From positions 598,994 to 662,993 of the forward strand of contig OZ244055.1 of NCBI GenBank assembly GCA_965214975.1: 64,000 nt of DNA, read 5' to 3'. Positions 11,840 to 53,692 of this stretch are shown in pieces. Position 1 is the stretch's first letter. The number at the start of each line of letters is the position of its first letter. Both the position numbers and the translations under genes were made by a program. Below the pieces are notes generated by a model. It ran no database searches and was not told the origin of the DNA. It saw only the letters and a list, made by a program, of their open reading frames with translations. This DNA is from Alphaproteobacteria bacterium. Lineage in GTDB: Bacteria > Pseudomonadota > Alphaproteobacteria > MPNO01 > UBA830.

Positions 11840-14215
11840 CTACGCTTCCGCGGCGTCGCGCTCGGCCACCAGCCGGAAGATGCGTTCGGGCGTGGCCGGA
11901 AGCGTCGTGATCTCGAGGCCAAGCGCGTCGGACACCGCGTTCGCGACGCAGGCGGGCGCGCCGATGGTGCCGCCCTCGCCGAGGCCGCGGAAGCCGCCGA
12001 GCGTGTCCGGCAGTTCGGCCTCGACGTGGAAGACCCCGATCTCGGGAACCTCGGACGCCGACGGCACGACGTAGTCGACCAGACTCGCGGTCAGAAGCTG
12101 GCCGTCCTCGTCGTGCACCACCTCTTCCAGGAGCGCGACCCCGATGCCCTGGGCGACGCCGCCATGCGCCTGCCCGTCGGCGATCAGCGGGTTGATGATC
12201 CGGCCGCAGTCCTCGGCGACCACGTAGCGCCGGACCGCGACCTGGTAGGTCTCGGGATCCATCTCGATCAGGCACATGTGCGTCGCCGACGTGGTGGTGC
12301 CCAGAAACGGGTCGTAGACGCGGGTGGCCTCCAGGTTGTCGATCTCGTCGCGCAGTTCCTTGGGCACGCGCCCCATGTCGGAATAGAGCGCGCGGGCGAG
12401 ATCCCGGATGCGCATCGACCGGTCGGTGCCCTTGACCCAGACGTCGCCGTCCCCGGTCTCGAGATCCTCCTCCCCGGCCTCCAGAAGATGGCTGGCGACG
12501 CGGAGGATCTTCTCGCGCACCGTCTGCGCGGCGAGCGTTCCGGCGCCCGCGCCGAACACCGCCGCGCGGCTCGCGTAGGTGCCGGTGGTGTGGCTGACCG
12601 CGGCGGTGTCGCCGAGCACGACGTCGACGTCCTCGACCCGCACGCCGAGAGTCTCGGCAACGACCTGGGCGAGCGTGGTCTCGACGCCCTGGCCCTGGCT
12701 CGTGAGCCCGAAGCTCGCCGTGACCGCGCCGGTGGAATCGACGGCCACGGTCGCGGTTTCCGTTCCGGTGTTGATCGGCATGCCGGGAGCGACCGCGATG
12801 CGCGAGCCGACGCCGGTGAGCTCGGCGTAGCAGGCGACGCCGATTCCCGCCCATCTGCCTTCGGCGCGGGCGGCGTCGCGTTCCCGGACCAGCGCGTCGT
12901 AGCCGATCTCGTCCGCGGCCCGCTGCAGGCAGGCCTGGAAGGCCGCCTTGTCCCACACCAGGCCCGACGCCGCCTTGTAGGGAAACTTCTCGACGAGATT
13001 GCGGCGCCGCATCTCGACCGGATCGAGGCCGAGCCTGCGCGCCGCCATGTCCGTCAGCCGTTCCATCACGAACGCGGAGATCGGCCGTCCGACGCCGCGG
13101 TAGGCGGCGCCGAGGGTCTTGTTGGTGGCGACCGAGCGGACCCGCGCCGCGTAGTTGGCGATCCGGTACGGCCCCGGAAGGAAGCTCACCACCTGGACCG
13201 GTTCCATGGAGGCCGTCCAGGGGTAGATCGAGTAGGCGCCGACGTCGCCGACGACGTCGGCCCTGAGGCCCAGGATCCCGCCGTCCGCGGAGACCGCGAG
13301 CTCGGCGTCCACGATCTCGTCGAAGGCATGGCCCGTCGTCATCAGGTCTTCCATGCGGTCGCTGACCCACTTGACCGGACGGCCGAGGTCGCGGGAGGCG
13401 GCGCAGACGACGATCTCTTCCGAATAGAGGGAGGTCTTGGCGCCGAAGCCGCCGCCGACGTCGGGGGCGACGACCCGGACGCGCGGTCCGGGAAGGTCGA
13501 ACAGCTCGCACAGCTTGTCGCGGACGATCCCGGGAATCTGCGTCGTGCTGTGGAGCGTCAGCGTGCGCGTTCCGGGCTCGTGCTCCGCCACGGCGGCGCG
13601 CGCCTCCACGGTCATCGGGGTCGTCCGCGTGAAACGGAACCTCGCCCCGACCACGGCATGGGCGGACGCGAAGGCCTCCTCGACCTCGCCGCGGGCGAAG
13701 GCGCGTTCGGCGAGCACGTTGGACTCGAGATCGTCGTGGAGCCTGGGGGCGCCTTCCTCCGCCGACCGTTCGGGGTCGACGAGCGCCGGCAGGGGCGCGA
13801 GGTCGACCGCGATCCGGGCCGCGGCGTCTTCCGCGAGATAGCGGCTCTCGGCGACGACGGCGGCAACCGCCTCGCCGACGTAGCGGACCTTGCCGACGGC
13901 GACCGGGGGGATGAAGGTCGCCTGGTAGTTCTTCATCCGCGACGTCGCCCGGTACGGCCGGACGAGGCGGCCGATGTCCTCGCCCGCGTAGACCGCGACC
14001 ACGCCCGGGGAGGCGGCGGCCTCCGCCACGTCCACGCCGCGGATCCGGGCATGGGCCCGGTCGCTCCGCCGGAAGGCGACGTGCAGCATGCCGTGGCGCT
14101 TGATGTCGGCGACGTAGCTGCCGGCCCCGGCGAGAAGCCGGGGATCCTCCTTGCGGGTCACCCGCGCCCCGACGAACCGCGGCCGGACGAGGGCGGCGCC
14201 GTCGGACGGCGTCAT
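11840..14215 (-). CDS. Molybdopterin-binding large subunit of a xanthine dehydrogenase / aerobic CO-dehydrogenase family hydroxylase (CoxL-like, AYRGVGR-type).
   Basis: MTPSDGAALVRPRFVGARVTRKEDPRLL...GGGFGAK...AAYRGVGRP... is a full-length 791-aa aldehyde oxidase / XDH a/b hammerhead plus MoCo domain. Its ATG overlaps the coxS-like stop (ATGA). Confidence 0.85.
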   Translation of the reverse strand: MTPSDGAALVRPRFVGARVTRKEDPRLLAGAGSYVADIKRHGMLHVAFRRSDRAHARIRGVDVAEAAASPGVVAVYAGEDIGRLVRPYRATSRMKNYQATFIPPVAVGKVRYVGEAVAAVVAESRYLAEDAAARIAVDLAPLPALVDPERSAEEGAPRLHDDLESNVLAERAFARGEVEEAFASAHAVVGARFRFTRTTPMTVEARAAVAEHEPGTRTLTLHSTTQIPGIVRDKLCELFDLPGPRVRVVAPDVGGGFGAKTSLYSEEIVVCAASRDLGRPVKWVSDRMEDLMTTGHAFDEIVDAELAVSADGGILGLRADVVGDVGAYSIYPWTASMEPVQVVSFLPGPYRIANYAARVRSVATNKTLGAAYRGVGRPISAFVMERLTDMAARRLGLDPVEMRRRNLVEKFPYKAASGLVWDKAAFQACLQRAADEIGYDALVRERDAARAEGRWAGIGVACYAELTGVGSRIAVAPGMPINTGTETATVAVDSTGAVTASFGLTSQGQGVETTLAQVVAETLGVRVEDVDVVLGDTAAVSHTTGTYASRAAVFGAGAGTLAAQTVREKILRVASHLLEAGEEDLETGDGDVWVKGTDRSMRIRDLARALYSDMGRVPKELRDEIDNLEATRVYDPFLGTTTSATHMCLIEMDPETYQVAVRRYVVAEDCGRIINPLIADGQAHGGVAQGIGVALLEEVVHDEDGQLLTASLVDYVVPSASEVPEIGVFHVEAELPDTLGGFRGLGEGGTIGAPACVANAVSDALGLEITTLPATPERIFRLVAERDAAEA

Positions 14216-14691
14216 TTCCGTTCCCTCCGGCCGACGACCTCGCGGACGGCGCGGACGATGTGCCCGTAGCCGGTGCAGCGGCAGATGTTTCCCGAGATGC
14301 CGTCGCGGATCTCGTCGTCGGTGGCGAGCGGGTACTTGCGGAGCAGGTCGGTGACGGTCATCAGCATGCCCGGCGTGCAGAATCCGCATTGCAGCGCGTG
14401 GTGGGCGCGGAACGCCTCCTGCAGCTCGCCGAGCGAATCGACGCTTCCCAGGCTCTCGACGGTCTCGACCTCGGCGCCGTCGGCCTGCACGGCAAGCGTC
14501 AGGCAGGAGCGCACGCTGTCGCCGTTCATCAGGACGGTGCAGGCGCCGCAGACCCCGTGCTCGCAGCCGACATGGGTTCCCGTGAGATCGAGATTCTCGC
14601 GGAGGAAATCCGCCAGCAGCAGGCGCGGCTCGACCTCGGCGGCATGGCGCGCGCCGTTGACGGTGACCGCGACGGGCATCCTCGCGGTCAC
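14212..14691 (-). CDS. (2Fe-2S)-binding small subunit of the molybdenum hydroxylase (CoxS-like).
   Basis: GCEHGVCGACTVLMNG...CGFCTPGM...CRCTGY carries both 2Fe-2S motifs; the product is 159 aa. Confidence 0.9.
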   Translation of the reverse strand: MTARMPVAVTVNGARHAAEVEPRLLLADFLRENLDLTGTHVGCEHGVCGACTVLMNGDSVRSCLTLAVQADGAEVETVESLGSVDSLGELQEAFRAHHALQCGFCTPGMLMTVTDLLRKYPLATDDEIRDGISGNICRCTGYGHIVRAVREVVGRRERK

Positions 14692-15560
14692 GGCGCCGTC
14701 TCCCCGCGGGCCCGCTCGACGGCCGCCCCGAGGGCGCGGCGCGCCAGAACCTCCGCGAGATGGCGCCGGTAGTCGGCCGAGCCGTGAAGGTCGTCCATGG
14801 GTTCCGCGGCGTCCCGCGCGGCGGCGGCGGCGGCGGCGACCGCGTCCGGCTCCGGCGGGTTGCCGGCGAGGAGTCTCTCGGCCTCCGCCGCCCTGAGCGG
14901 CGTGCCGTGGACGCCGAGCAGCGCGAGCCGGGCCATCGACACCGAGCCGCCGTCGAGCGCGACCAGGGCCGCCGCGCCCGCGACCGCGAAGTCGCCCCGC
15001 CGCCGCGCGACCTCCTCGAAGCCCCAGCCGGTGCCCGGCGGCAGGCCCGGCAAGGTCACCGACACCGCCATCTCGTCGTCGCCGAGCGCGTTCGCCAGAG
15101 GGCCGGCGAAGAACCCGCCGGCCTCGAGCGCGCGTCCGCCCGAGGGGCTCGCGGTCTCGATCACGGCGTCGAGGAGAACCGACATGGCCGGCAGTTCGGC
15201 CGCGGGGTCGGCGTGGCAGAGACTGCCGCCGAAGGTGCCCCGGTTGCGGACGGCGAGATGGGCGACGTGGCGCATCGCGGCGGCGACCACCGGAAACCGC
15301 TCGCGGACCGCGTCCGACGTCTCGACCCGGTGATGGCGGGCGAGCGCGCCGATGCGCAGCCCGCCGCCCTCCTCGGCGATGCCGTCGAGCCCCTCGATGC
15401 CGTTGACGTCGACGAAGGTCGCCGCGTCGACGAGACGGAAGTTGAGCATCGGGACCAGGCTCTGGCCGCCGGCCAGGATCCGGGCGCCGCCCCCGGCAAG
15501 GGCGTCCACCGCGTCGCCGACCGTGGCGGCGCGGACGTAGTCGAACGGGGCGGGCTTCAT
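14688..15560 (-). CDS. FAD-binding medium subunit of the molybdenum hydroxylase (CoxM-like).
   Basis: MKPAPFDYVRAATVGDAVDAL...LAGGQSLVPMLNFRL...AVRNRGTFGGSLCHADPAAELPA is the FAD-binding PCMH domain. I chose the internal ATG at 15560, which has a spacing typical of operon genes. Confidence 0.8.
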   Translation of the reverse strand: MKPAPFDYVRAATVGDAVDALAGGGARILAGGQSLVPMLNFRLVDAATFVDVNGIEGLDGIAEEGGGLRIGALARHHRVETSDAVRERFPVVAAAMRHVAHLAVRNRGTFGGSLCHADPAAELPAMSVLLDAVIETASPSGGRALEAGGFFAGPLANALGDDEMAVSVTLPGLPPGTGWGFEEVARRRGDFAVAGAAALVALDGGSVSMARLALLGVHGTPLRAAEAERLLAGNPPEPDAVAAAAAAARDAAEPMDDLHGSADYRRHLAEVLARRALGAAVERARGETAP

Positions 15561-20358: not shown

Positions 20359-20392
20359 CGGCCGGCCTCCCGCCGGCCGGAGGGGCGGCCGG

Positions 20393-22030
20393 ATGACTGG
20401 CGCCGCGCGGATGACCGGAGGCGCGGCGATCGTCGACGCGCTCGCGCGGCACGGCGTCGAGGTCGCGTTCGGCATCCCCGGCGTTCAGCTCGACCCCTTG
20501 TTCGCCGCCCTTCACGACGCCCGCGACCGCATCCGGATCGTCCACACGCGCCACGAGCAGGGGGCTGGGTACATGGCGCTCGGCTACGCCATGGCGACGG
20601 GCAGGCCGGGAACCGCGATCGTGGTTCCCGGGCCGGGCCTCCTCAACGCCTCGTCCGCGATCGCCACCGGCTACGCCGTCAACGCGCCGCTTCTGTGCGT
20701 TGCCGGGCAGATCCCCTCGCGCCTGATCGGCAGGGGAACGGGGCAGCTTCACGAGATTCCCGACCAGCTCGCTCTCGCCAGGGGGCTGACCAAGTGGGCC
20801 GCCCGCATGGACGCCCCGGGCGACGCCCCGGCGGTCGTCGGAGAGGCCTTCCGCCGCCTCGCCGGCGGACGCCGCCGTCCGGTGGTCGTCGAGATGGCGA
20901 TGGACGTGATGGCGGCCGAGGGCGAGGTGCGGCCCCTCGACCCCGCGCCGGCGGAGGCGCCTCCGGCGCCGGATCCGGATTCCGTCGAAGCCGCCGCGAG
21001 ACTCCTCGGCTCCGCCGAAAGGCCGCTCATCGTCGCCGGAGGCGGCGCCGTCGATGCCGGCGAGGGACTGGTCCTGCTCGCGGAGATGCTGCAGGCTCCG
21101 GTGGTCCTGACCCGGGGCGCTCTCGGAACGGTGAGCGCCCGCCATCCCCTGGCCTTCACGCCGCCGTTCGGCCATCGGCTGTGGCGGGACGCGGATGCCG
21201 TGCTCGGAGTCGGGACGCGGCTGGTGCCGATGATCCCGGGCTGGGGAGTCGACGACGCGCTGAAGGTGGTCCGTCTCGACATCGATGCGGCGGAGCTGTC
21301 CCGGAACCGCGCGCCGGATGCGGCGATTCACGCCGATGCGGCAGCCGGGCTGGCCGCGCTTCTCGAAACGCTGCCGGCGCACAACGCGGTCCGCGGCTCC
21401 CGCGCCGAGGAGCTTGCGGAGGTCAGGGCCGCCCTCGACGCCGAGTTCGCGAAGCTCGATCCGCAGGTGCCGATCCTCCGCGCCATCCGCCGGGCGCTTC
21501 CCGAGGACGGGATCTTCGTCGAGGAGCTGACGCAGCCGGGGTACGTCGCGAGGCTGGTCTTTCCGGTCTACGAGCCGCGCACCTACATCCATCCCGGATA
21601 CCAGGGGACGCTGGGCTACGCCGCCCCCACCGCGATGGGCGCGAAGGTGGGGCGTCCGGACCGCAAGGTGCTGGCGATTTCGGGGGACGGCGGCTTCATG
21701 TTCAACGTCCAGGAACTGGCGACCGCCGCGCAGCACGGCATCGACGTCGTGCTGGTGGTCTTCAACGACGGCGCCTACGGCAACGTCAAGCGTTTCCAGC
21801 GGCAGCTGTTCGGCGGCAGGGAGATCGCCGTCGATCTGAGGAATCCGGATTTCATGAAACTCGCCGAGGCGTTCGGCATCCAGGGGCTTCGCGCCCGCAC
21901 GCCGGGCGAACTGGAGCGGGCCATCGTCGAGGGCTTCGGCACCGCGGGACCGACGCTGATCGAGTATCCGATCGGGGAGGTTCCGGATCCGTGGCATCTG
22001 GTCCAGCCCGGAAAGGTGCGTGGAACCTGA
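20393..22030 (+). CDS. Thiamine-pyrophosphate-dependent enzyme (acetolactate synthase / benzoylformate decarboxylase family).
   Basis: 545 aa with the N-terminal Pyr domain (AIVDALARHGVEVAFGIPG...), the central domain, and the C-terminal PP domain (LAISGDGGFMFNVQELATA...NDGAYG). Confidence 0.85.
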   Translation: MTGAARMTGGAAIVDALARHGVEVAFGIPGVQLDPLFAALHDARDRIRIVHTRHEQGAGYMALGYAMATGRPGTAIVVPGPGLLNASSAIATGYAVNAPLLCVAGQIPSRLIGRGTGQLHEIPDQLALARGLTKWAARMDAPGDAPAVVGEAFRRLAGGRRRPVVVEMAMDVMAAEGEVRPLDPAPAEAPPAPDPDSVEAAARLLGSAERPLIVAGGGAVDAGEGLVLLAEMLQAPVVLTRGALGTVSARHPLAFTPPFGHRLWRDADAVLGVGTRLVPMIPGWGVDDALKVVRLDIDAAELSRNRAPDAAIHADAAAGLAALLETLPAHNAVRGSRAEELAEVRAALDAEFAKLDPQVPILRAIRRALPEDGIFVEELTQPGYVARLVFPVYEPRTYIHPGYQGTLGYAAPTAMGAKVGRPDRKVLAISGDGGFMFNVQELATAAQHGIDVVLVVFNDGAYGNVKRFQRQLFGGREIAVDLRNPDFMKLAEAFGIQGLRARTPGELERAIVEGFGTAGPTLIEYPIGEVPDPWHLVQPGKVRGT

Positions 22031-22290
22031 TTCCGCCGGGCGGCGGGACGGGGGTCGCCGGAGCCCGGAGCGTCAGGGCGACCGCCGGGCCGCCGCAGCC
22101 GGCGCGGGGCTCGCGGATCCGGGCGCCGCGGGCGGAGTCGGGTTCGACCGCGACAGCTCCGGGACGGCGAGGCGGCCTCGGCAACGCTGCCGCAGAGGGC
22201 GCCGACACCCGGGCGACACCTCCCGTCGATATTCTCTTCCGCGCCGCCCCGCTCACCTGCCCTCGAAAGGATTGAGCAGCTTGACTCATC
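20568..22290. repeat. Direct repeat copy 1 (~1.72 kb), near-identical to 24570-26285.
   Basis: Direct comparison of the two stretches: only a handful of substitutions (giving A/T, V/I, E/G, G/D, K/R protein differences) and one 1-nt indel near 22262. Copy 1 ends at ...gcagcttgac, immediately followed by the AT-richer IS left end. Confidence 0.9.
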
Positions 22291-22477
22291 TTCGACAGTT
22301 CGAGGGCTGACTTGACGCTCCCGGGACGGGGAAGTCCTGCATTTCAGGGCTTTTCCGCCCCGTCCCGGTGCCGGATTCCAGAAAAAGTGGTGCCACCCTG
22401 CGCTTGAAAGATTCGGACAATACACAATTTTAATGCTCCCTTTCGTGAGAACACTTGGCAGGATGAGTGGTGTCCCA

Positions 22478-23361
22478 ATGGAGGCCACCATGTTCTGCCG
22501 CACCAAGGTCAGCGGTTCCAACACGTACCTCCGGATCGTCGAGAACCGCCGCGAGGGCGGGAAAGTCCGCCAGCGCGTCATCGCGACCCTCGGGCGCCTC
22601 GACCATCTCCAGGCCAGCGGCGCCCTCGACCGCCTGCTCCAGTCCGCCTGCCGCTTCTCCGAACAGCTCGTCGCGCTCGCCGCGCGGCCCGGCGACGGCA
22701 ACGGCGAGGACGGTGCCGTCGTACGCCATGTCGGACTCGCGCTGGCGTTCGAAAGCCTGTGGCGTGCCAGCGGCTGCCGGGAGATCGCGCGGGAGCCGCT
22801 TGGCGGGCGGCGCTTCCGGTTCGACGTCGAGCGCGCGGTCTTCGCCAGCGTGCTCCACCGCATCATGGTCTCGGGCTCCGTCCGCGCGGCCCGCGCGTGG
22901 ATGCGCGACCAGGCCATCGACGGGACGGCGGGGCTCGACCTCCAGCACCCGTGCCGGGCGATGGCGTGGCTGGGAGAGGCGCTGCCGGACGCCGGCCAGC
23001 GTCACTCCACCCATGCGCCGCGCTGCGTGAAGGACGTGTTCGAGGAGGCGCTATTCGCGCGCGAGCGGGATCTGTTCACCGGGCTCGACCTGGTGTTCTT
23101 CGACACCACGTCGCCGCACTTCACCGGCCGGGGCGGCGAGACGATCGGACGCCGCGGGCGCTCGAAGGACCGCCGTGCCGCCAGATGGTTCCGGGGCTGG
23201 TGCTGGATCGGGACGGACGTCCGGTCAGGGCGCGAAAAAGAGCTCGATGGCCTCGTCGCCGCCGCCCACAACGCGATGGCCGAGACCATGAACGAAGGCC
23301 CGGCGTGAGCGATTCCTTTGCCGGATTGCGTGAGCACGGCATCCCGACTATCAAGCCATGA
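22478..23361 (+). pseudogene. IS1634-family transposase, frameshifted and 3'-truncated.
   Basis: MEATMFCRTKVSGSNTYLRIVENRREGGKVRQRVIATLGRLD matches the IS1634/ISNCY-type transposase N-terminus. The conserved SKDHRPDLKQ...GL..DRDG.P segment is split between frame 22433 (GRSKDRRAAR) and frame 22759 (QMVPGLVLDRDGRPV), which indicates a frameshift near 23150-23200. The reading frame stops at 23361 at about half the expected length. Confidence 0.7.
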
Positions 23362-23438
23362 CAGTGCGCCTGCCCTTCGGGCGCGACCTTGTCCTGCGGA
23401 CGGCTTCCAGTTTCGAGCCGTGGACCGATGGCGGAGCT

Positions 23439-24323
23439 TCCATGGCTTGGCTGTTCTTCATCGACGAGAGCGGGCACGACCACAAGCACATGCCCTACGA
23501 GGTGCGCGGCGGCTTCGCGATCCATGTGAGCCAACTCTGGCCGTTCGTGCAGGCGATGCAGGATTTGGAGACCGATTGCTTCGGTTGCCGGCTCGGCGAT
23601 GTTGGCAAGGAGATCAAGGGCTCGACCCTGATCGACCGCAAACGCTTTGCGTTTGCGGTCCAAGGCGAGCCGTTTCCCGACCGGGAGCGGCGGGAACTCT
23701 GCCGATCCTTTCTCGCGCAGAGCCGCACCGGAAACACGCCGGGGCGGGACATGTTCACCGCCTACGGCCAGGCCTGCCTGCGCATGGCTCGGGAAATCAT
23801 CGCGCTTCTGAAGCGAAGCGGCGCCGTCCTGATGGCAGCCGCCATCCCGCGCGGCATCGCAAGGCCGCGGGACACCCGGTTCAACGATTATCTACGCAAG
23901 GACGTGGTGTTCCTGTTCGAGCGGTTCTTCTATTTCCTGGAGAGGAAGCGGGAGCACGGCGTGCTGGTCATGGACGAGACCGACAAGCGGGAGGACCGCC
24001 GCTTCGTCGTCAGAATGGAGAGGTATTTCACGCGAACAGCCACGGGACGGTACCGGACGGCGTGGATCGTGCCGACGCCGTTCTTCGTCTCATCTGACAT
24101 GGCCCGCGCCGTGCAGGCAGCGGATCTGTGCATCTACGCCGTCAACTGGGGCTTCCGCTTACCCGGTCGGGGCATGGACGCGCCGCGCCGTGACGAGATC
24201 GCCGAGATGTTCGGGGCGGATCTGGCCGATCTCCAGTATCGCGGCCAGGGTGTCCGCGACGGTCGAGTGTTCGACAGCTATGGGATCATCTATGTCCCCG
24301 ATCCCTACGATTCACGAGCCTGA
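23439..24323 (+). CDS. DUF3800-like protein.
   Basis: MAWLFFIDESGH (the N-terminal h-h-DESG motif) and a C-terminal SSDMARAVQAADLCIYA (the conserved Q..AD motif), in a ~294-aa product. Its GC is lower than neighbouring genes. I chose the internal ATG at 23439 because the protein family begins at the DESG motif. Confidence 0.6.
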   Translation, partial: SMAWLFFIDESGHDHKHMPYEVRGGFAIHVSQLWPFVQAMQDLETDCFGCRLGDVGKEIKGSTLIDRKRFAFAVQGEPFPDRERRELCRSFLAQSRTGNTPGRDMFTAYGQACLRMAREIIALLKRSGAVLMAAAIPRGIARPRDTRFNDYLRKDVVFLFERFFYFLERKREHGVLVMDETDKREDRRFVVRMERYFTRTATGRYRTAWIVPTPFFVSSDMARAVQAADLCIYAVNWGFRLPGRGMDAPRRDEIAEMFGADLADLQYRGQGVRDGRVFDSYGIIYVPDPYDSRA

Positions 24324-24569
24324 TCACCAAAGGCGAAGCGTGAAAAAGGAGGTAACGCCCCGTCGCTCAATCCCGCGCACCGAGGTGGCGAGTTTCATAC
24401 GGGGCCGAACCTCCACGGGCGAATGTGGCCCGCAATCCGGCGAAAGTCAAGCTTCTGTCCTGGTTCAGGACATATGAGTCGGCGGAGGTTCTTCGGCTGT
24501 CAGGTTGGCAAGGTAGTCTGCGGGGGTTCGTCCGCCAAGGGCTTGGTGCGGTCAGAAGGCGTTGAACTC

Positions 24570-26285
24570 GGTACATGGCGCTCGGCTACGCCATGGCGAC
24601 GGGCAGGCCGGGAACCGCGATCGTGGTTCCCGGGCCGGGCCTCCTCAACGCCTCGTCCGCGATCGCCACCGGCTACACGGTCAACGCGCCGCTTCTGTGC
24701 GTTGCCGGGCAGATCCCCTCGCGCCTGATCGGCAGGGGGACGGGACAGCTTCACGAGATTCCCGACCAGCTCGCTCTCGCCAGGGGGCTGACCAAGTGGG
24801 CCGCCCGCATGGACGCCCCGGGCGACGCCCCGGCGATCGTCGGAGAGGCCTTCCGCCGCCTCGCCGGCGGACGCCGCCGTCCGGTGGTCGTCGAGATGGC
24901 GATGGACGTGATGGCGGCCGAGGGCGAGGTGCGGCCCCTCGACCCCGCGCCGGCGGAGGCGCCTCCGGCGCCGGATCCGGATTCCGTCGAAGCCGCCGCG
25001 AGACTCCTCGGCTCCGCCGAAAGGCCGCTCATCGTCGCCGGAGGCGGCGCCGTCGATGCCGGCGAGGGACTGGTCCTGCTCGCGGAGATGCTGCAGGCTC
25101 CGGTGGTCCTGACCCGGGGCGCTCTCGGAACGGTGAGCGCCCGCCATCCCCTGGCCTTCACGCCGCCGTTCGGCCATCGGCTGTGGCGGGACGCGGATGC
25201 CGTGCTCGGAGTCGGGACGCGGCTGGTGCCGATGATCCCGGGCTGGGGAGTCGACGACGCGCTGAAGGTGGTCCGTCTCGACATCGATGCGGCGGAGCTG
25301 TCCCGGAACCGCGCGCCGGATGCGGCGATTCACGCCGATGCGGCGGCCGGGCTGGCCGCGCTTCTCGAAACGCTGCCGGCGCACAACGCGGTCCGCGGCT
25401 CCCGCGCCGGGGAGCTTGCGGAGGTCAGGGCCGCCCTCGACGCCGAGTTCGCGAAGCTCGATCCGCAGGTGCCGATCCTCCGCGCCATCCGCCGGGCGCT
25501 TCCCGAGGACGGGATCTTCGTCGAGGAGCTGACGCAGCCGGGGTACGTCGCGAGGCTGGTCTTTCCGGTCTACGAGCCGCGCACCTACATCCATCCCGGA
25601 TACCAGGGGACGCTGGGCTACGCCGCCCCCACCGCGATGGGCGCGAAGGTGGGGCGTCCGGACCGCAAGGTGCTGGCGATTTCGGGGGACGGCGGCTTCA
25701 TGTTCAACGTCCAGGAGCTGGCGACCGCCGCGCAGCACGGCATCGACGTCGTGCTGGTGGTCTTCAACGACGGCGCCTACGGCAACGTCAAGCGTTTCCA
25801 GCGGCAGCTGTTCGGCGGCAGGGAGATCGCCGTCGATCTGAGGAATCCGGATTTCATGAAACTCGCCGAGGCGTTCGGCATCCAGGGGCTTCGCGCCCGC
25901 ACGCCGGACGAACTCGAGCGGGCCGTCGCCGAGGGTTTCGGAACCGCGGGACCGACGCTGATCGAGTATCCGATCGGGGAGGTTCCGGATCCGTGGCATC
26001 TGGTCCAGCCCGGAAGGGTCCGCGGAACCTGATTCCGCCGGGCGGCGGGACGGGGGTCGCCGGAGCCCGGAGCGTCAGGGCGACCGCCGGGCCGCCGCAG
26101 CCGGCGCGGGGCTCGCGGATCTGGGCGCCGCGGGCGGAGTCGGGTTCGACCGCGACGGCTCCGGGACGGCGAGGCGGCCTCGGCAACGCTGCCGCAGAGG
26201 GCGCCGACACCCGGGCGACACCTCCCGTCGATATTCTCTTCCGCGCCGCCCCGCTCACCGCCCTCGAACGGATTGAGCAGCTTGA
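24570..26285. repeat. Direct repeat copy 2 (~1.72 kb).
   Basis: It starts at ggtacatggcgctcggctacgcc and matches 20568-22290. It ends at ...gcagcttgac, followed by an 18-bp tandem duplication (ttgacatcgagtttccgg twice) and then unique vapC sequence. Confidence 0.9.
24575..26032 (+). pseudogene. N-terminally truncated duplicate of the TPP-dependent enzyme gene (codons 61-545 only).
   Basis: MALGYAMATGRPGTAIVVPG... is identical to residues 61 onward of the 20393..22030 product apart from five substitutions. It lacks the first 60 codons (the start of the Pyr domain) and any native upstream region. An ATG exists at the internal Met, so expression cannot be excluded. Confidence 0.6.
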
Positions 26286-26679
26286 CATCGAGTTTCCGGT
26301 TGACATCGAGTTTCCGGAAGTCCCGAACGTTCCGCGTCGCGACCGTCAACCGGTGGACTCTCGCAGTGGCTGCGATCATGGCGTCCTCGAGCAGGGTATC
26401 CGACTTGCGGTGCTTGAGACGCGCCCACTCCCGGAAAGACGCCGTGTCCATCGCAAGGATGCCGTAGCTGTCGACTATCCGGTCGAGCCAGAACGCGAGT
26501 TCTTCCGCCTTCGCCACGTCCTGCTTGCGCGTCGCTTCGATACCGGCCTGGATTTCGCCGACCGTGACGGCCGACAGGAACAGTCGATCGGCGGGAACCC
26601 CTTCGATCCACTTCAAAACCCTCTTGTGGGGCCGGGGACGGCGGAGCTCCGGGACGACGTTGGTGTCCAACAGGTACAC
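25777..26679 (-). CDS. vapC: PIN-domain toxin VapC, with an aberrant C-terminal read-through. The PIN core is about 26270..26679.
   Basis: MYLLDTNVVPELRRPRPH...LSAVTVGEIQAGIE...TRNVRDFRKLDV is a VapC PIN domain with a GTG start. The expected end KLLNPFEGR* is replaced by RKLDVN-RKLDV (an 18-bp tandem duplication) and a 1-nt indel that removes the stop. The ORF therefore runs ~165 extra codons into the antisense of repeat copy 2. Confidence 0.65.
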   Translation of the reverse strand: MYLLDTNVVPELRRPRPHKRVLKWIEGVPADRLFLSAVTVGEIQAGIEATRKQDVAKAEELAFWLDRIVDSYGILAMDTASFREWARLKHRKSDTLLEDAMIAATARVHRLTVATRNVRDFRKLDVNRKLDVKLLNPFEGGERGGAEENIDGRCRPGVGALCGSVAEAASPSRSRRGRTRLRPRRPDPRAPRRLRRPGGRPDAPGSGDPRPAARRNQVPRTLPGWTRCHGSGTSPIGYSISVGPAVPKPSATARSSSSGVRARSPWMPNASASFMKSGFLRSTAISLPPNSCRWKRLTLP

Positions 26680-26686
26680 CGCCGTC

Positions 26687-26947
26687 CTATTCGAGGGCTG
26701 ATGCCGGACGGGAACGGTGCTGCGAGCGAGGCGGCGCGAGCGCCTCGATGCGGGGTTCCGGCGCGAGCAGCATCTCCTTCAGATCAGGTTGCGCTGTTTC
26801 CCGCAACCTCCGCCACTGCCCGATCGGCAACAGCACCGCCGCCTCGACGCCACGCCTGGTCACGATCTGCGGCCCCTCGTTGATGCTCGCTTCAAGGAAC
26901 TCGCCGAATCGGGCCTTCGCTTCCTGCACCTGCCATGACCTGCCCAT
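26687..26947 (-). CDS. Phd/YefM-type antitoxin (VapB partner).
   Basis: MGRSWQVQEAKARFGEFLEASINEGPQIVTRRGVEAAVLLPIGQWRRL is the Phd/YefM fold, 86 aa, ending 8 nt before the vapC start. An alternative ATG lies at 26980. Confidence 0.7.
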   Translation of the reverse strand: MGRSWQVQEAKARFGEFLEASINEGPQIVTRRGVEAAVLLPIGQWRRLRETAQPDLKEMLLAPEPRIEALAPPRSQHRSRPASALE

Positions 26948-27411
26948 GATTTTCTCCGCGTCAAGGTGCTGACCATTCATACAACCCTCCGGGATCGGGT
27001 GCAAGCCGGCGCCGAATCCGCGGAACCGGGGTGCCCGGTCCGAACGCGCCCCAGACTCTTCATTTCGTGCAACTGCCCGGGTGCCCCATCTCCGGTGACG
27101 GCGTGCCGGCAACTGTCGCCACGGAGGCGGCGTCCGCTCGCCTGTTGGCATTACAGCCTTGAGGGTTCAAGGTTCGCTCCGGTGCGGGACAGGAGTGTCC
27201 CACGCTCCCCGATTGCGGCCGATTCCGGTCGATCCGAGCCGCGTCCGGGCGTCGCGGCTGGCGCGCGACGGTCCGTTTCGCGGGTTCGCGGTCTTCTTTC
27301 GGGGCGGGATTCGGGTTCGGAGGCGCCGGATGCCGCTGCCGGCGGACCGGCGGCGTGGCGGCAGCGCCCCGCCTCCCGGATGGCTCTCGATGCAGACGGA
27401 ATGAGGAGGCA

Positions 27412-28897: not shown

Positions 28898-30529
28898 ATG
28901 GGCGAAGCGAGGAACGTTCTGTGGATCATGGCCGACCAGCTGCGATGGGACTACCTGTCCTGCTACGGCCATCCGCATCTTCACACGCCGCATCTCGACC
29001 GCCTCGCCGAGCGCGGCGTGCGCTTCACCAACGCCTACGTGCAGTCGCCGTTCTGCGGCCCCTCGCGGATGTCCTCCTACACCGGACGGTACTGCCGTTC
29101 GCACGGCGCCACGTGGAACGGCTTTCCGCTGCGGGTCGGCGAGCCGACGCTCGGCGACCACCTGCGCGGGATTGGCGTCAGGCCGGTGATCGTCGGCAAG
29201 ACCCACATGGTTCCGGACGCCGCGGGCATGGAGCGGCTCGGGATCGACCCGGTCTCGGAGATCGGCGTTCACGTCGCCGAGTGCGGGTTCGAGCCGTTCG
29301 AGCGCGACGACGGGCTCCACCCCTTCGGGCCGATGGACCCGAACCCGGTCTACAACGACTACCTGAGGCAGCGGGGCCTGAACTCGTCGAACCCGTGGGA
29401 GGAGAACGCCAACGCGGGAATCGACGAAAACGGGGATCTCCGCTCCGGGTGGCTCATGAAGCACGCCAACCTGCCGGCGAACGTCCCCGAGGAGCATTCC
29501 GAAACGCCCTACATGACGGGGAGGGCGATCGACTTCATGAAACAGGCCGGCGACGCGCCTTGGCTCTGCCATCTCTCCTACATCAAGCCGCACTGGCCCT
29601 ACATCGTGCCGGCCCCCTACCACGCGATGTACGGCAGCGAGCACGTGCTGGCGCCGGTGCGCTCCGACGAGGAGCGCGAGACCGACCATCCGGTCTTCCG
29701 CGCCTACATCGATTCGAGAATCTGCCGCACCATGTCCCGCGACGAGGTCCGCGCCCGCGTGATCCCGGCCTACATGGGGCTCGTCAAGCAGATCGACGAC
29801 CAGCTCGGCCGCCTGTTCTCGTGGATGGAGGAGGCCGGCCTGATGGACAGCACCCTGATCGCGTTCACGTCCGACCACGGCGACTATCTCGGCGACCACT
29901 GGATGGGCGAGAAGGATCTGTTCCACGACCAGTCCGTCAAGGTGCCGCTGATCGTCTGCGACCCCCGCGCCGAGGCCGACGCGACCCGCGGCCTGGCGCG
30001 GGACGAACTCGTCGAGTGCATCGACCTCGCCCCGACGTTCCTGCGCTATTTCGGCGGTCCGGAACTGCCGCACGTGATGGAGGGCCGGACGCTGGATCCG
30101 CTGCTCCATTCGGCCGGCCGGCCCGCGGACTGGCGGCGTCACGCGATTTCCGAATACGACTACGCCACCCGCGAGGCGCGGCAGCTGATCGGCAACGCGC
30201 AGGAGGACGCGAGGCTGATCATGATCCGCGACGCGCGGTGGAAGTACGTCCATGCCGAGGGCTTCCGCCCGATGCTTTTCGATCTCGAGGCGGATCCCCA
30301 GGAACTGCGCGACCTCGGGGACAGCCCCGATCCGGAGCACGCGCGGGTCCGCGAGGCCCTGCGCGAGGGGATCTTCGCCTGGGCGCGAAGGCATCACAAC
30401 CGGTTCACGCTCGATCCCGCGACCATCGAGAGAATGACCGGAGGGGAACCGCCGGGCGTGCTGATCGGCTTCTGGGACGAGGAGGAGTTCGAGTCCGTCT
30501 TCGGCAAGCCGTTCGCGGAACGCCCCTGA
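28898..30529 (+). CDS. Sulfatase family protein (alkaline phosphatase superfamily; formylglycine-type C-x-P-x-R).
   Basis: WIMADQLRWDY...SPFCGPSRMSSYTGRY is the sulfatase signature with Cys for FGly. The ATG at 28898 has a GAGAGGAAGGA Shine-Dalgarno sequence. The product is 543 aa. Confidence 0.85.
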   Translation: MGEARNVLWIMADQLRWDYLSCYGHPHLHTPHLDRLAERGVRFTNAYVQSPFCGPSRMSSYTGRYCRSHGATWNGFPLRVGEPTLGDHLRGIGVRPVIVGKTHMVPDAAGMERLGIDPVSEIGVHVAECGFEPFERDDGLHPFGPMDPNPVYNDYLRQRGLNSSNPWEENANAGIDENGDLRSGWLMKHANLPANVPEEHSETPYMTGRAIDFMKQAGDAPWLCHLSYIKPHWPYIVPAPYHAMYGSEHVLAPVRSDEERETDHPVFRAYIDSRICRTMSRDEVRARVIPAYMGLVKQIDDQLGRLFSWMEEAGLMDSTLIAFTSDHGDYLGDHWMGEKDLFHDQSVKVPLIVCDPRAEADATRGLARDELVECIDLAPTFLRYFGGPELPHVMEGRTLDPLLHSAGRPADWRRHAISEYDYATREARQLIGNAQEDARLIMIRDARWKYVHAEGFRPMLFDLEADPQELRDLGDSPDPEHARVREALREGIFAWARRHHNRFTLDPATIERMTGGEPPGVLIGFWDEEEFESVFGKPFAERP

Positions 30530-30603
30530 CCGCAACGCCCCTGACCGCAACGCCCCTGACCGCAACGCCCCTGACCGCGGGGCCCCTGACCGCGGGGCCC
30601 CGG
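30524..30603. repeat. 15-bp tandem repeat, about 5.5 units (gcccctgaccgcaac x4, then gcccctgaccgcggg x2).
   Basis: Read directly: cgcccctgaccgcaacgcccctgaccgcaacgcccctgaccgcaacgcccctgaccgcggggcccctgaccgcggggcccc. It spans from the sulfatase stop (which is inside the first unit) to the convergent ligase stop. Confidence 0.9.
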
Positions 30604-52323: not shown

Positions 52324-52823
52324 CGCGCGCTCCGTTCGCCGCCCGCGGCGCGGCGCGCGGCGCCGACGGTTTCGATGGCGTCGACGATCGCGTGGTAGCC
52401 GGTGCACCGGCAGTAGTTGCCGGACATGAACTCGCGGATGTCCTCGCGGCTTCGCTGCCGGTTCCCGGCCAGCAGTTCCGCCGCGGTCATCAGCATCCCG
52501 GGCGTGCAGTATCCGCACTGCAGCGCGTTCCGCTCCACGAACGCGTCCTGCAGGTCCGCGATCTCCCCGGACTCGCTCAGCCCCTCGATCGTCGTGATCT
52601 CGGAGCCGTCGCACTGCACCGCCAGCATCAGGCAGCCCCTGACCACGGCGCCGTCGACGCGCAGCGAGCAGGCGCCGCACACCCCGTGTTCGCAGCCGAG
52701 ATGCGAACCGGTCAGCCCGAGTTCGGAGCGCAGGAAATCCACCAGGTGCCGGCGCACGGGAACGCTCCGGGTCACCGGCTCGCCGTTGACCGTCATCGAG
52801 ACCGTCGCCGTCTCCTCGTTCAT
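52320..52823 (-). CDS. (2Fe-2S)-binding small subunit (CoxS-like), second copy.
   Basis: GCEHGVCGACSLRVDG...CGYCTPGM...CRCTGY, 167 aa. ATG at 52823. Confidence 0.9.
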   Translation of the reverse strand: MNEETATVSMTVNGEPVTRSVPVRRHLVDFLRSELGLTGSHLGCEHGVCGACSLRVDGAVVRGCLMLAVQCDGSEITTIEGLSESGEIADLQDAFVERNALQCGYCTPGMLMTAAELLAGNRQRSREDIREFMSGNYCRCTGYHAIVDAIETVGAARRAAGGERSAR

Positions 52824-53692
52824 GCCTTGCCCCCGGCGCGGGCGACGGCGGCGTCCAGGGCGCGCCCGCTCAGCACTTTCTGGAGATGCATCTTCATCGC
52901 CGGGCTTCCGGCCAGATTGTCCATCGGATCGAGGTCGTCCTCGAGCGCGGTCTCGACGGCCCGTCTCGTCTCGTCCGACCATTCGCGCCCCGCCAGCGCC
53001 GCCGCGGCGCGGACGCCGACGACCGGCCGGTCCTCGCTCGCGAAATAGACCAGCCGCATCTCGTTGACCGTCCGTCCCGAGAGGCTGCCGCAGGCCGCGA
53101 CCCCCGCGACGGCGAAGTCCCCCCTTCGCCGCGCGAGTTCCATGAAGACCGAGACGTTCTCCGCCCTCTGCGCCGGAAGGCGGACCTCGACGAGGAGCTC
53201 GTCGTCGCGGCGGGCGGTCTCGTAGAGGCCCAGGAAATAGTCGTCGGCCGCGACCTCGCGCGTCCCAGAGACGCTGCGCAGCACGATCGTGCCGCCGAGC
53301 GCGAGAACGCAGGCCGGCAGTTCCGCGGCCGGGTCGGCGAGCGCGACGCTGCCGCCGAAGGTTCCCCGGTTGCGCACCGCGACATGGGCGACGTGCGGCA
53401 TCGCCTCGGCGACCAGCGGCAGGCGTTCGGCGACGATTCCGGATCCCATGACCTCGGCGTGGCGGGCCAGCGCGCCGATGCGCACGGTGTCGCCGTCGAC
53501 GGAGATGCCCCCGAGCTCGTCGAGGCGGTTGATGTCGACGAGAAGCCTGGGCCTCGAGAGGCGCATGTTGAGCGTCGGCATGAGACTCTGGCCGCCCGCG
53601 AGGACGCGGGCGTCGTCCCCGTGCTCTTCGAGGAGACCGAGGGCGTGGGGCACGCTCTCGGCACGCACGTATCCGAACTTCGGCGCCTTCAC
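52820..53692 (-). CDS. FAD-binding medium subunit (CoxM-like), second copy.
   Basis: MKAPKFGYVRAESVPHALGLLEEHGDDARVLAGGQSLMPTLNMRL...AVRNRGTFGGS, 290 aa. Its stop overlaps the coxS-like start. Confidence 0.8.
   Translation of the reverse strand: MKAPKFGYVRAESVPHALGLLEEHGDDARVLAGGQSLMPTLNMRLSRPRLLVDINRLDELGGISVDGDTVRIGALARHAEVMGSGIVAERLPLVAEAMPHVAHVAVRNRGTFGGSVALADPAAELPACVLALGGTIVLRSVSGTREVAADDYFLGLYETARRDDELLVEVRLPAQRAENVSVFMELARRRGDFAVAGVAACGSLSGRTVNEMRLVYFASEDRPVVGVRAAAALAGREWSDETRRAVETALEDDLDPMDNLAGSPAMKMHLQKVLSGRALDAAVARAGGKA

What the first reader, a model, noticed from the sequence alone, without database searches (positions are those of the whole stretch)
25777..26947. vapBC locus in which the VapC toxin has lost its stop codon through an 18-bp tandem duplication plus a 1-nt indel
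Directly upstream of the PIN-toxin C-terminus, the sequence ttgacatcgagtttccgg occurs twice in tandem, inserting RKLDVN in frame. A 1-nt difference relative to repeat copy 1 (cacctgccc versus caccgccc) then removes the TGA, so the PIN protein reads on for ~165 codons into the antisense of the duplicated region. The Phd/YefM antitoxin is intact. This could be a decaying TA module or a toxin with an altered C-terminus. The 18-bp duplication sits exactly at the repeat/unique boundary, so it probably records the recombination event.
Basis: seen in the sequence. Interest (0 to 1): 0.6.

Follow-up and report, generated by a model that had tools for sequence, protein, structure and literature searches.

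The report
Decaying VapC toxin beside IS scar
An ordinary Phd-VapC toxin-antitoxin cassette whose toxin gene carries a 6-codon in-frame duplication and a 1-base deletion that removes its stop codon, right where an IS1634-type insertion sequence and a 1.7-kb duplication have rearranged the DNA; it is best read as a toxin gene going out of service, not as a new kind of system.

Summary
A perfect 18-bp tandem duplication lies at 26282-26317. One base is missing between 26259 and 26260 relative to the paralogous copy at 22258. The minus-strand PIN/VapC ORF therefore runs 300 codons (26679 to 25777) instead of 135. The Phd/YefM antitoxin (26947 to 26687, 86 aa) is intact.

The title's causality is wrong in one respect. 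The stop is lost only through the -1 frameshift in the penultimate codon (GGC AGG TGA becomes GGC GGT GAG). The 18-bp duplication is in frame and only inserts RKLDVN.

None of the 120 closest homologues has the insert, and 103 of 120 are 134-135 aa long. Undoing both lesions gives exactly 135 aa. The 160-codon tail has no coding signature, is predicted disordered, and lies in a frame that is also open in the other repeat copy.

The 1.72-kb repeat flanks a mosaic made of an IS1634-family relic, a DUF3800 module and 114 nt of unknown origin. The relic's true left terminus (CTTGACTCATCTTCGACAGTT) abuts a severed vapC tail that still carries the ancestral ...KLLNPFEGR-TGA. The 18-bp array starts 1-5 nt from the equivalent point in the full-length vapC gene.

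Best reading: a toxin-first decaying TA cassette scarred by IS-associated rearrangement. Interest is low.

The parts
26687..26947 (-). Phd/YefM-type antitoxin gene (86 aa plus stop), intact
   Evidence: Pfam PF02604, E 1.5e-14. NCBIfam phd_fam, 50 bits against a cut-off of 20.8. It has the same length (86 aa) and no indels against the partners of the closest VapC homologues, at 71-73% identity.
26260..26679 (-). VapC/PIN toxin, homologous part (aa 1-140; GTG start; 7-nt spacer after the antitoxin stop)
   Evidence: Pfam PIN PF01850, E 4.4e-16, aa 2-125. 7,978 homologues at E<=1e-10, the best at 78-80% identity. FitB (2H1C) E 2.7e-15 by sequence and top Foldseek hit for the model. The acidic residues D5, E42, D99 and D120 are conserved. 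Unusual substitutions: S10P (116 of 120 homologues have S) and E52K.
26282..26317 (.). Perfect 18-bp tandem duplication, in frame, inserting RKLDVN ahead of the last beta-strand of the PIN domain
   Evidence: The insert is absent from all 120 closest homologues and from homologous DNA in L087 and L088. AF2 places it in a short helical turn at residues 126-130, before strand 133-135.
26259..26260 (-). Site of the 1-nt deletion (T/A present at 22258 in copy 1). It causes a -1 frameshift in the penultimate codon and destroys the TGA.
   Evidence: Copy 1 reads GGC AGG TGA. L087 reads GGT GAA TGA and L088 reads GGC AAA TGA at the same alignment columns. Copy 2 reads GGC -GG TGA.
25777..26259 (-). 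Read-through extension (160 codons plus stop): 76 codons of intergenic DNA, then 84 codons antisense to the truncated TPP gene copy
   Evidence: GC by codon position is .65/.75/.79, against .66/.40/.82 for the PIN part. AF2 pLDDT is below 50 with no secondary structure for residues 143-300. The same frame is open in copy 1 (ORF 21775..22917).
22253..22285 (-). Severed vapC 3' tail in repeat copy 1: (V)KLLNPFEGR plus TGA, preserving the ancestral end
20568..22285 (+). Repeat copy 1: codons 59-545 of the full-length TPP-enzyme gene (20393-22030), the intergenic spacer and the vapC tail
   Evidence: The TPP enzyme matches NCBIfam PRK08266 at 730 bits.
24570..26286 (+). Repeat copy 2: 5'-truncated TPP gene (ORF 24575-26032), the spacer and the 3' end of the full-length vapC gene
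22280..23228 (+). IS1634-family relic: genuine left terminus, leader, and transposase aa 1-227 followed by a frameshift and aa 228-246; the 3' half and the right terminus are missing
   Evidence: NCBIfam transpos_IS1634, profile positions 1-161 of 483. tblastn against the 559-aa Acidiphilium transposase. Window 22280-22300 is 21/21 identical to the reverse complement of the right terminus of a 94.7%-identical IS in L095. Homology to the IS copies in L092 and L093 starts at 22283-22284.
23229..24455 (+). DUF3800 gene module (true CDS about 23442-24323, 293 aa)
   Evidence: Pfam PF12686. 92-95% DNA identity, without gaps, to five ENA metagenome contigs, L082-L086.
24456..24569 (.). 114 nt of unknown origin joining the DUF3800 module to the truncated TPP copy
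   Evidence: No match in the window, in any fetched locus or in plasmids. No tRNA or Rfam hit. It does not match the right end of the related IS copies.

Best explanation
This is a horizontally acquired two-gene type II toxin-antitoxin cassette. A Phd/YefM antitoxin gene is followed by a FitB-like PIN/VapC ribonuclease toxin gene. In its normal form the cassette encodes 86 aa plus 135 aa.

The antitoxin gene is intact here. The 3' end of the toxin gene carries two lineage-specific lesions. One is a perfect in-frame 18-bp tandem duplication that adds six residues before the last beta-strand. The other is a 1-nt deletion in codon 135 that shifts the frame across the TGA.

Translation, if it occurs, would run 160 more codons through GC-rich intergenic DNA and the antisense strand of a truncated TPP-enzyme gene. 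The product would carry an Arg/Pro/Gly-rich tail with no predicted structure. The tail has no selected function.

The locus is best read as toxin-first decay of an addiction module, or at least attenuation of it. Mutations that weaken the toxin are tolerated, while loss of the antitoxin is not (established TA logic).

The lesions sit at a rearrangement scar. An IS1634-family element was joined to vapC at ...GAGCAG|CTTGAC. A 1.72-kb segment running from inside the TPP gene to that same point is present twice, flanking the IS relic, a DUF3800 module and 114 nt of unknown origin. The 18-bp duplication begins 1-5 nt from that point, so it is most likely a by-product of the same DNA-breakage and repair or transposition history.

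Shown: the lesions, their uniqueness among homologues, the non-coding character of the tail, the IS terminus and the repeat structure. Inferred: that the toxin is inactive or attenuated, that the lesions are real rather than assembly errors, and that the 18-bp duplication is mechanistically tied to the IS junction.
For: Lesions and ancestral state:
- Sequence evidence.
- Removing the 18 bp and restoring the T gives exactly 135 aa. That is the modal family length: 86 of 120 homologues are 135 aa and 17 are 134 aa.
- 107 of 120 homologues end 2-3 residues after the [ND]PF motif.
- None of the 120 has the insert.
- The TGA of copy 1 aligns with the TGA of homologues.

Module identity:
- Pfam and NCBIfam matches, PDB sequence match, Foldseek match.
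- Homologous cassettes are 86 aa plus 135 aa.
- The antitoxin aligns without gaps.

The tail is not coding:
- GC by codon position is .65/.75/.79 against .66/.40/.82 for the PIN part. That antisense frame has 10 stops in 545 codons.
- The same frame is open in copy 1.
- pLDDT is below 50 for residues 143-300.

Extra sign of relaxed constraint: S10P at a site where 116 of 120 homologues have S.

IS junction: 21/21 identity of 22280-22300 to the right terminus of the L095 IS, and homology boundaries with L092 and L093.

The sequence is not indel-noisy. There are no gaps in 1,285 nt, 1,227 nt (four contigs), 904 nt and 81 nt of alignment to independent assemblies. The two 1.72-kb copies differ by only one indel.

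Precedent: a frameshifted toxin gene in an otherwise intact TA locus, hicAB, found non-functional in a kill-rescue assay (PMC7650669).
Against: - No independent assembly or reads of this locus could be found. The 1-nt deletion therefore rests on one sequence.
- All four PIN acidic residues are intact and AF2 still models a PIN fold with the insert, so the protein could remain toxic.
- No transcript or protein data are available.
- The link between the 18-bp duplication and the IS junction rests on position only. The expected full 18-bp copy is not present next to the IS terminus in copy 1, and no simple one-step mechanism fits.
- dN/dS between the two TPP copies (about 0.3, from 9 synonymous and 8 non-synonymous changes) does not discriminate between in-situ duplication and import of a second allele.
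Confidence: 0.65

Rival explanations
1. The 1-nt deletion is an assembly or base-calling error. The real gene would have the 6-aa insert but a normal ...FEGR-TGA end (141 aa).
For: - The source appears to be a single 3.8-Mb contig (P0241, 100% identical to the IS-relic ORF). That suggests a long-read assembly, in which single-base indels are the commonest error.
- Two 98.7%-identical 1.72-kb copies can confuse read mapping during polishing.
- No second assembly of the locus was found.
Against: - The missing base is not in a homopolymer (CC-T-GCCC).
- It is the only indel among 22 differences between the copies.
- The window aligns without a single gap to independent assemblies over about 3.5 kb nearby.
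- The same gene carries two other unique changes, the 18-bp duplication and S10P, which cannot be base-calling errors.
Confidence: 0.12
2. The toxin is still active. The PIN domain folds with a longer loop and the disordered tail is tolerated, or it changes stability or regulation, for example faster proteolysis. On this view the module is a functional TA system with an altered C-terminus.
For: - D5, E42, D99 and D120 are intact.
- AF2 keeps the PIN fold. pLDDT is 73-85 across residues 121-140, and the last strand is retained at 133-135.
- Foldseek still returns FitB and VapC.
- An intact antitoxin is what one expects if the toxin is still dangerous.
Against: - The C-terminal strand and the residues after NPF are length-constrained in the family: 107 of 120 homologues have 2-3 residues there and the maximum is 25.
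- The tail shows no coding signature.
- S10P hits a near-invariant site.
- AF2 is insensitive to destabilising changes, so the retained fold is weak evidence.
- Retention of the antitoxin is also expected early in decay.
Confidence: 0.15
3. The A-B-A arrangement, and with it the comparison between 'copy 1' and 'copy 2', is an assembly chimera of two strain haplotypes. One haplotype would have the IS in vapC and the other an uninterrupted vapBC.
For: - The 1.3% divergence between the copies is typical of strain-level variation.
- A related population carries the same IS with its right end next to the homologue of window 27195-27275, so alternative haplotypes around vapBC do exist.
Against: - A chimeric join would be expected to fall inside shared sequence.
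- Here both novel junctions (vapC tail|IS terminus at 22279-22285, and unknown 114 nt|TPP codon 59 at 24569/24570) join non-homologous sequences, so each must exist in a real molecule.
- The lesions in vapC would be unaffected either way.
Confidence: 0.05

Closest known systems
Phd/YefM-antitoxin plus VapC (PIN) type II TA cassettes of Alphaproteobacteria and metagenomes, e.g. the modules in L087-L089 encoding P0001 and P0003
   Same: Same gene order and orientation. Antitoxin of 86 aa. Toxin 73-80% identical over the PIN domain. 78-81% DNA identity over 26300-26948. These cassettes sit among transposase and integrase genes.
   Different: The homologues have a 135-aa toxin ending 2-3 residues after NPF/DPF. 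This one has a 6-aa insert, a frameshifted last codon and a 300-codon ORF.
FitAB of Neisseria gonorrhoeae (FitB PIN toxin; PDB 2H1C, 2BSQ, 2H1O)
   Same: FitB is the closest solved structure by sequence (E 2.7e-15) and by fold (probability 1.00, target-normalised TM 0.64-0.65).
   Different: From my own knowledge, the FitA antitoxin is a ribbon-helix-helix protein. Here the antitoxin is Phd/YefM. The FitB D122 position is N117 here, and the fourth acidic residue is D120, as in VapC-type 'xxDF' motifs (alignment).
Toxin genes of TA loci inactivated by frameshift, e.g. hicAB variants in Stenotrophomonas maltophilia (PMC7650669)
   Same: A frameshift in the toxin gene with the rest of the locus retained. 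The paper also raises the same doubt about sequencing error.
   Different: There, the loss of toxicity was shown by kill-rescue assay. Here nothing has been tested. Here the frameshift sits in the last sense codon, so the catalytic domain is untouched.
IS1634 / IS1549 (IS1634 family), known for long, variable-length direct repeats of 8-514 bp on insertion (PMC2266710)
   Same: An IS1634-family left terminus abuts the repeat. An 18-bp perfect duplication would fall within the documented range of repeat lengths. The architecture flank-A-insert-A-flank is formally that of a target-site duplication.
   Different: The element is a relic, with transposase aa 1-246 of about 560 and a frameshift. No right terminus is present. 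The right junction is made by unrelated DNA. The 1.72-kb repeat is 3.3 times the longest repeat reported, and its copies differ by 1.3%.

Membership tests
VapBC (PIN-domain) type II toxin-antitoxin system | Toxin with a PIN domain carrying the four conserved acidic residues | tested here: met
   PF01850, E 4.4e-16, aa 2-125. D5, E42, D99 and D120 are invariant or nearly invariant in alignments of 20-36 homologues. FitB and VapC are the top structural matches.
VapBC (PIN-domain) type II toxin-antitoxin system | Small antitoxin gene immediately upstream, on the same strand and closely spaced | tested here: met
   Phd/YefM gene at 26947 to 26687. vapC GTG at 26679, after a 7-nt spacer. Homologous cassettes have the same layout.
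VapBC (PIN-domain) type II toxin-antitoxin system | Compact toxin of about 130-140 aa that ends a few residues after the C-terminal [ND]P[FW] strand | tested here: not met
   The ORF is 300 aa with 162 residues after NPF. The family has 2-3 residues there in 107 of 120 homologues, with a maximum of 25. The cause is a 1-nt deletion.
VapBC (PIN-domain) type II toxin-antitoxin system | Toxin is a ribonuclease whose growth inhibition is neutralised by the cognate antitoxin | not testable with these tools
   Needs a kill-rescue assay and RNA-cleavage assays.
tRNA(fMet)-specific VapC (NCBIfam equivalogs NF047863, PRK13725) | Score above the curated equivalog cut-off | tested here: not met
   38.2 bits against a cut-off of 140, and 17.6 bits against 143. 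No RNA target can be assigned.
FitAB | FitB-like PIN toxin paired with a ribbon-helix-helix FitA antitoxin | tested here: not met
   The toxin resembles FitB, but the antitoxin is Phd/YefM, PF02604.
IS1634-family insertion sequence | Full-length DDE transposase of about 480-570 aa | tested here: not met
   Only aa 1-227 in frame, then a frameshift and aa 228-246 of a 559-aa reference. NCBIfam 64 bits against a cut-off of 100, profile positions 1-161 of 483.
IS1634-family insertion sequence | Terminal inverted repeats at both ends | tested here: not met
   The left terminus is present: 22280-22300 is 21/21 identical to the right terminus of the L095 IS. No second terminus exists anywhere in the window. 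The right edge of the insert does not match the right ends of related IS copies.
IS1634-family insertion sequence | Direct target repeats flanking the element (5-6 bp typically, 8-514 bp for IS1634 and IS1549) | tested here: inconclusive
   A 1.72-kb direct repeat flanks the mosaic insert, but only its left junction is an IS terminus. The family data come from PMC2266710.

The most novel reading that the evidence does not exclude
The perfect 18-bp tandem duplication in vapC is a retained target-site duplication, that is, an excision or repair footprint, of the IS1634-family element whose terminus is joined to the severed vapC tail at the same nucleotide. The 1.72-kb repeat around the IS relic would then be another product of this family's unexplained habit of making long, variable direct repeats. 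The window would preserve both a short and a record-length example of IS1634-type target duplication in an alphaproteobacterium, and would offer a natural substrate for working out that mechanism.
Probability: 0.15. Interest if true: 0.45.

Novelty: new member of a known kind. Interest (0 to 1): 0.2.

Why it matters
It matters little beyond annotation. The 300-codon ORF should not be annotated as a long PIN-fusion protein. It is a VapC gene with a frameshifted last codon, next to a truncated second copy of a TPP-enzyme gene.

It is a clean example of two things. First, in high-GC genomes the loss of a stop codon automatically creates a long but meaningless ORF. Second, a paralogous fragment (the severed tail in copy 1) can preserve the ancestral state of a gene.

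The only wider interest lies in the IS1634 angle. This family is known to make long, variable target duplications by an unknown mechanism, and this locus may carry two such scars.

Tried and rejected
Searches for an independent copy of the locus:
- Exact-protein look-ups of the antitoxin, the TPP enzyme and the IS-relic ORF found nothing on record.
- A 27-mer from the spacer just 3' of vapC had no hit in metagenome contigs.
- The VapC search found nothing closer than 78-80% identity.
- The stop-loss therefore could not be cross-checked.

Synteny:
- 80 loci with TPP-enzyme orthologues were examined, the best at 83% aa identity (L063).
- None has vapBC downstream, so the pre-insertion site could not be reconstructed.

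Is the insert a discrete IS with two ends?
- No terminal inverted repeat was found.
- No second copy of the terminus occurs in the window.
- The right-hand 114 nt match nothing.
- A 10/11 resemblance of the right edge to the Acidiphilium IS left terminus was not borne out by the much closer IS copies in L092, L093 and L095. I treat it as chance.

Is the right edge of the insert a tRNA or attachment site? There is no tRNA gene and no Rfam match.

Other checks that gave nothing:
- No intrinsic terminator that would make a non-stop mRNA, and no sigma-70 promoter consensus.
- The spacer RNA folds no better than shuffled sequence (z = 0.69).
- Polarising the TPP amino-acid differences with outgroups suggests that 4-5 of the 7 changes are on the truncated copy, but the numbers are too small to date or order the events.

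Several multi-step histories were considered: a giant target-site duplication, Campbell-type integration of a second allele, homology-facilitated illegitimate recombination, and template switching. None fits all the junctions in one step.
Full report
OBSERVATION

The unit TTGACATCGAGTTTCCGG occurs exactly twice in the window, head to tail, at 26282-26299 and 26300-26317. TRF scores it as period 18, 2.0 copies, 100% identity. It is the only perfect array among the four arrays scoring at least 60 in the whole 64 kb.

A self-comparison shows one long direct repeat: 20565-22285 against 24567-26286, 98.7% identical. Base by base, the solid homology starts at 20568/24570. The copies differ by 21 substitutions and a single indel. 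The indel is a T at 22258 in copy 1 that is absent between 26259 and 26260 in copy 2 (cacctgccc versus caccgccc).

On the minus strand, copy 1 reads GTC AAG CTG CTC AAT CCT TTC GAG GGC AGG TGA (V K L L N P F E G R stop). Copy 2 reads ...TTC GAG GGC GGT GAG CGG... The ORF that starts with GTG at 26679 runs to 25777, 300 codons. The extension is 160 codons rather than about 165.

WHAT THE GENES ARE

The ORF's first 125 residues are a PIN domain (PF01850, E 4.4e-16). The gene upstream (26947 to 26687, 86 aa) is a Phd/YefM antitoxin (PF02604, E 1.5e-14; NCBIfam phd_fam above its cut-off).

The closest solved structure is FitB. The sequence match to 2H1C has E 2.7e-15. Foldseek on the AF2 model returns 2BSQ and 2H1C with probability 1.00 and target-normalised TM 0.64-0.65. 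NCBIfam equivalogs for the tRNA(fMet)-specific VapC score far below their cut-offs, so no RNA target can be named.

The protein database holds 7,978 relatives at E<=1e-10. The best are 78-80% identical. Of the 120 closest:
- 86 are 135 aa and 17 are 134 aa;
- 107 end 2-3 residues after the [ND]PF motif, and the longest tail is 25 residues;
- none has the RKLDVN insert.

Removing the 18 bp and restoring the T gives exactly 135 aa.

In three homologous cassettes whose DNA I fetched (L087-L089), the layout is Phd 86 aa, a 4-nt spacer, then PIN 135 aa. Their TGA falls in the same alignment columns as the TGA of the copy-1 tail, and they lack the 18 bp. The antitoxin aligns to theirs without any gap at 71-73% identity.

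The ancestral state is therefore clear, and the severed tail in copy 1 has preserved it. The stop is lost only because of the 1-nt deletion. The 18-bp duplication is in frame and has nothing to do with the stop.

THE TAIL IS NOT A GENE

GC content by codon position is .66/.40/.82 in the PIN part and .70/.51/.79 in the antitoxin. In the extension it is .65/.75/.79, and in the extension's intergenic part .85/.80/.77, so the coding periodicity is gone.

The last 84 codons are antisense to the truncated TPP gene. They lie in a frame that carries only 10 stops per 545 codons. The same frame is open over the same sequence in copy 1, where no PIN domain precedes it (ORF 21775..22917).

AlphaFold2, run with a 37-sequence alignment, models residues 1-142 as a PIN fold. 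Block pLDDT there is mostly 73-91, and 53-67 for residues 71-100. Residues 143-300 have pLDDT below 50 and no secondary structure. A long read-through is simply what happens when a stop is lost in 71-80% GC DNA.

CONTEXT: AN IS-SCARRED REARRANGEMENT

Copy 1 of the repeat contains codons 59-545 of a full-length TPP-dependent enzyme gene (20393-22030; NCBIfam PRK08266, 730 bits). It also contains the 224-nt spacer and the last ten codons plus the stop of vapC. Copy 2 contains the same TPP segment, now 5'-truncated, then the spacer, and continues into the full-length vapC.

Between the copies lies a 2.28-kb mosaic of lower GC (65.6% against 72-74%). It has three parts.

(i) 22280-23228 is an IS1634-family relic. 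It has a leader, then transposase residues 1-227, a frameshift, and residues 228-246 of a 559-aa Acidiphilium reference. Its left end is a genuine IS terminus:
- Window 22280-22300 (CTTGACTCATCTTCGACAGTT) is 21/21 identical to the reverse complement of the right terminus of a 94.7%-identical IS in an ENA contig (L095).
- Homology to two further copies (L092, L093; boundaries defined by their mutual alignment) begins at 22283-22284.

(ii) 23229-24455 is a DUF3800 gene module. It is 92-95% identical, without gaps, to five ENA contigs. One of them (L086) shares the IS-relic|DUF3800 junction.

(iii) 24456-24569 is 114 nt that match nothing.

There is no right IS terminus anywhere in the window. 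The last six bases of repeat copy 1 (CTTGAC) are also the first six bases of the IS terminus. The vapC|IS junction is therefore ambiguous over 22279-22285.

In L095 the right end of the intact IS is followed by 81 nt that are 96% identical to window 27195-27275. That segment lies on the far side of vapBC. Related populations therefore carry other arrangements of the same IS around this spot.

HOW THE 18-bp DUPLICATION RELATES TO THIS

The array starts at 26282, which is 1-5 nt from the point in the full-length vapC gene that corresponds to the vapC|IS junction of copy 1. For an independent event to land there by chance has a probability of about 3% within the gene and about 0.02% within the window. 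The other two differences in the vapC tail lie 16 nt (A/C at 22268/26269) and 26 nt (the deletion) from the same point.

- The architecture flank-A-insert-A-flank is formally a target-site duplication. IS1634 and IS1549 are documented to make long, variable direct repeats of 8-514 bp (PMC2266710). Against this, only the left junction is an IS terminus, the repeat would be 3.3 times the record, and its copies differ by 1.3%.
- An 18-bp excision footprint (a retained target duplication) fits the family's range and the perfect identity of the two units. Against this, the full 18-bp copy expected next to the IS terminus in copy 1 is not there.
- Import of a second allele by illegitimate recombination, or template switching during repair, would also fit parts of the picture.
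- dN/dS between the TPP copies (9 synonymous and 8 non-synonymous changes, about 0.3) and outgroup polarisation are too weak to choose among these.

REAL OR ERROR?

I found no second assembly of the locus. The IS-relic ORF is 100% identical to a protein recorded on a 3.8-Mb contig. The source is therefore probably a long-read assembly, where single-base indels are the typical error.

Several points argue against an error here:
- The missing T is not in a homopolymer.
- It is the only indel among 22 differences between the copies.
- The window aligns without one gap to independent assemblies over 1,285, 1,227 (four contigs), 904 and 81 nt nearby.
- The same gene has two other unique changes that cannot be base-calling errors: the 18-bp duplication, and S10P at a position where 116 of 120 homologues have Ser.

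I put the error reading at about 0.12.

HOW IT MOST LIKELY WORKS NOW

The antitoxin is intact and the catalytic quartet (D5, E42, D99, D120) is intact. The insert lies between the strand that ends in the fourth acidic residue and the last beta-strand. AF2 accommodates it as a short helical turn (residues 126-130) and keeps the final strand (133-135).

Whether the protein, with its 160-residue Arg/Pro/Gly-rich tail, is still toxic cannot be decided in silico. The family tightly constrains the length of this C-terminus. TA loci are expected to lose the toxin first, and frameshifted toxin genes in otherwise intact loci have been shown to be non-functional elsewhere (PMC7650669). The most likely state is therefore an attenuated or dead toxin with a retained antitoxin (confidence 0.65). 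No terminator or promoter consensus and no unusual RNA structure were found downstream.

COMPARISON AND NOVELTY

By domain content and gene organisation this is a member of the VapBC type II TA family, of the Phd-antitoxin/FitB-like-toxin subtype. That subtype is abundant in metagenomes and typically sits among transposase genes. It fails one family feature, the compact toxin with a stop just after the NPF strand, for a trivial mutational reason. It is not FitAB, because the antitoxin class differs. The IS relic is not a functional IS1634-family member.

Nothing here is a new kind of system. It is a damaged new member of a known kind.

The organism is an alphaproteobacterium. The best TPP orthologues are in Rhodospirillaceae and Alphaproteobacteria MAGs at 71-83% identity. 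None of those loci has vapBC downstream. That fits the lower GC of the cassette (63.9%) and its horizontal origin.

VERDICT

Interest is 0.2. The only reading that would raise the interest is that the 18-bp duplication and the 1.72-kb repeat are both IS1634-type target duplications (probability about 0.15).

Noticed in passing
window 20568-22285 and 24570-26286: 1.72-kb direct repeat, 98.7% identical (21 substitutions, 1 indel), duplicating codons 59-545 of a TPP-dependent enzyme gene (PRK08266 family). The second copy lacks its first 58 codons, so it is presumably a pseudogene, yet it keeps an open frame of 485 codons. The differences comprise 9 synonymous and 8 non-synonymous nucleotide changes. 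Nine of the differences cluster in 21906-22021.
   Followed up: partly
window 22280-23228; L095 1-2008; L092 4546-6589; L093 4796-6842: Relic of an IS1634-family element (transposase aa 1-246 with a frameshift) with an authentic left terminus, CTTGACTCATCTTCGACAGTT. Near-full-length relatives (81-95% identical) occur in ENA metagenome contigs. Their transposase genes are also called in two pieces.
   Followed up: yes
window 27195-27275; L095 2010-2090: An 81-nt segment between the antitoxin gene and the P450 gene is 96% identical to the DNA immediately right of the intact IS in contig L095. Homology stops after 81 nt on the far side. It may be a small mobile or repeated unit, or the remnant of another arrangement of the same IS around vapBC.
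   Followed up: partly
window 23229-24455; L082-L086: A DUF3800 gene module is 92-95% identical, without gaps, to five ENA contigs. In the four long contigs (L082-L085) it lies at the edge of a variable block next to a conserved MarR/HpaB aromatic-degradation cluster. The block carries SSB (L083, L084), YAcAr (L082, L085) and RelE/HTH (L082-L084) genes. The 321-aa ORF in the window is over-extended; the real start is M29, giving 293 aa.
   Followed up: partly
window 26650-26652 (VapC codon 10) and 26524-26526 (codon 52): VapC has Pro where 116 of 120 homologues have Ser (the other 4 have Ala), and Lys where 109 of 120 have Glu. These are further unusual changes in the toxin. The antitoxin shows no indel against its homologues.
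   Followed up: partly
window 30519-30593: Five copies (95% matches) of a 15-bp unit (AACGCCCCTGACCGC) overlapping the 3' end of the sulfatase-like ORF that ends at 30529. In one frame the array reads PLTAT/PLTAG repeats.
   Followed up: no
window 20377-20425: Imperfect 18-19-nt tandem repeat (2.6 copies, 70% matches) across the start of the TPP-enzyme gene, giving the N-terminus MTGAAR-MTGGAA. Orthologues begin around the second Met, so the annotated start may be too far upstream.
   Followed up: no
window 12015-15495 versus 50118-53621: Three collinear stretches of 67-73% DNA identity between two distant parts of the window. These are presumably paralogous genes or operons.
   Followed up: no
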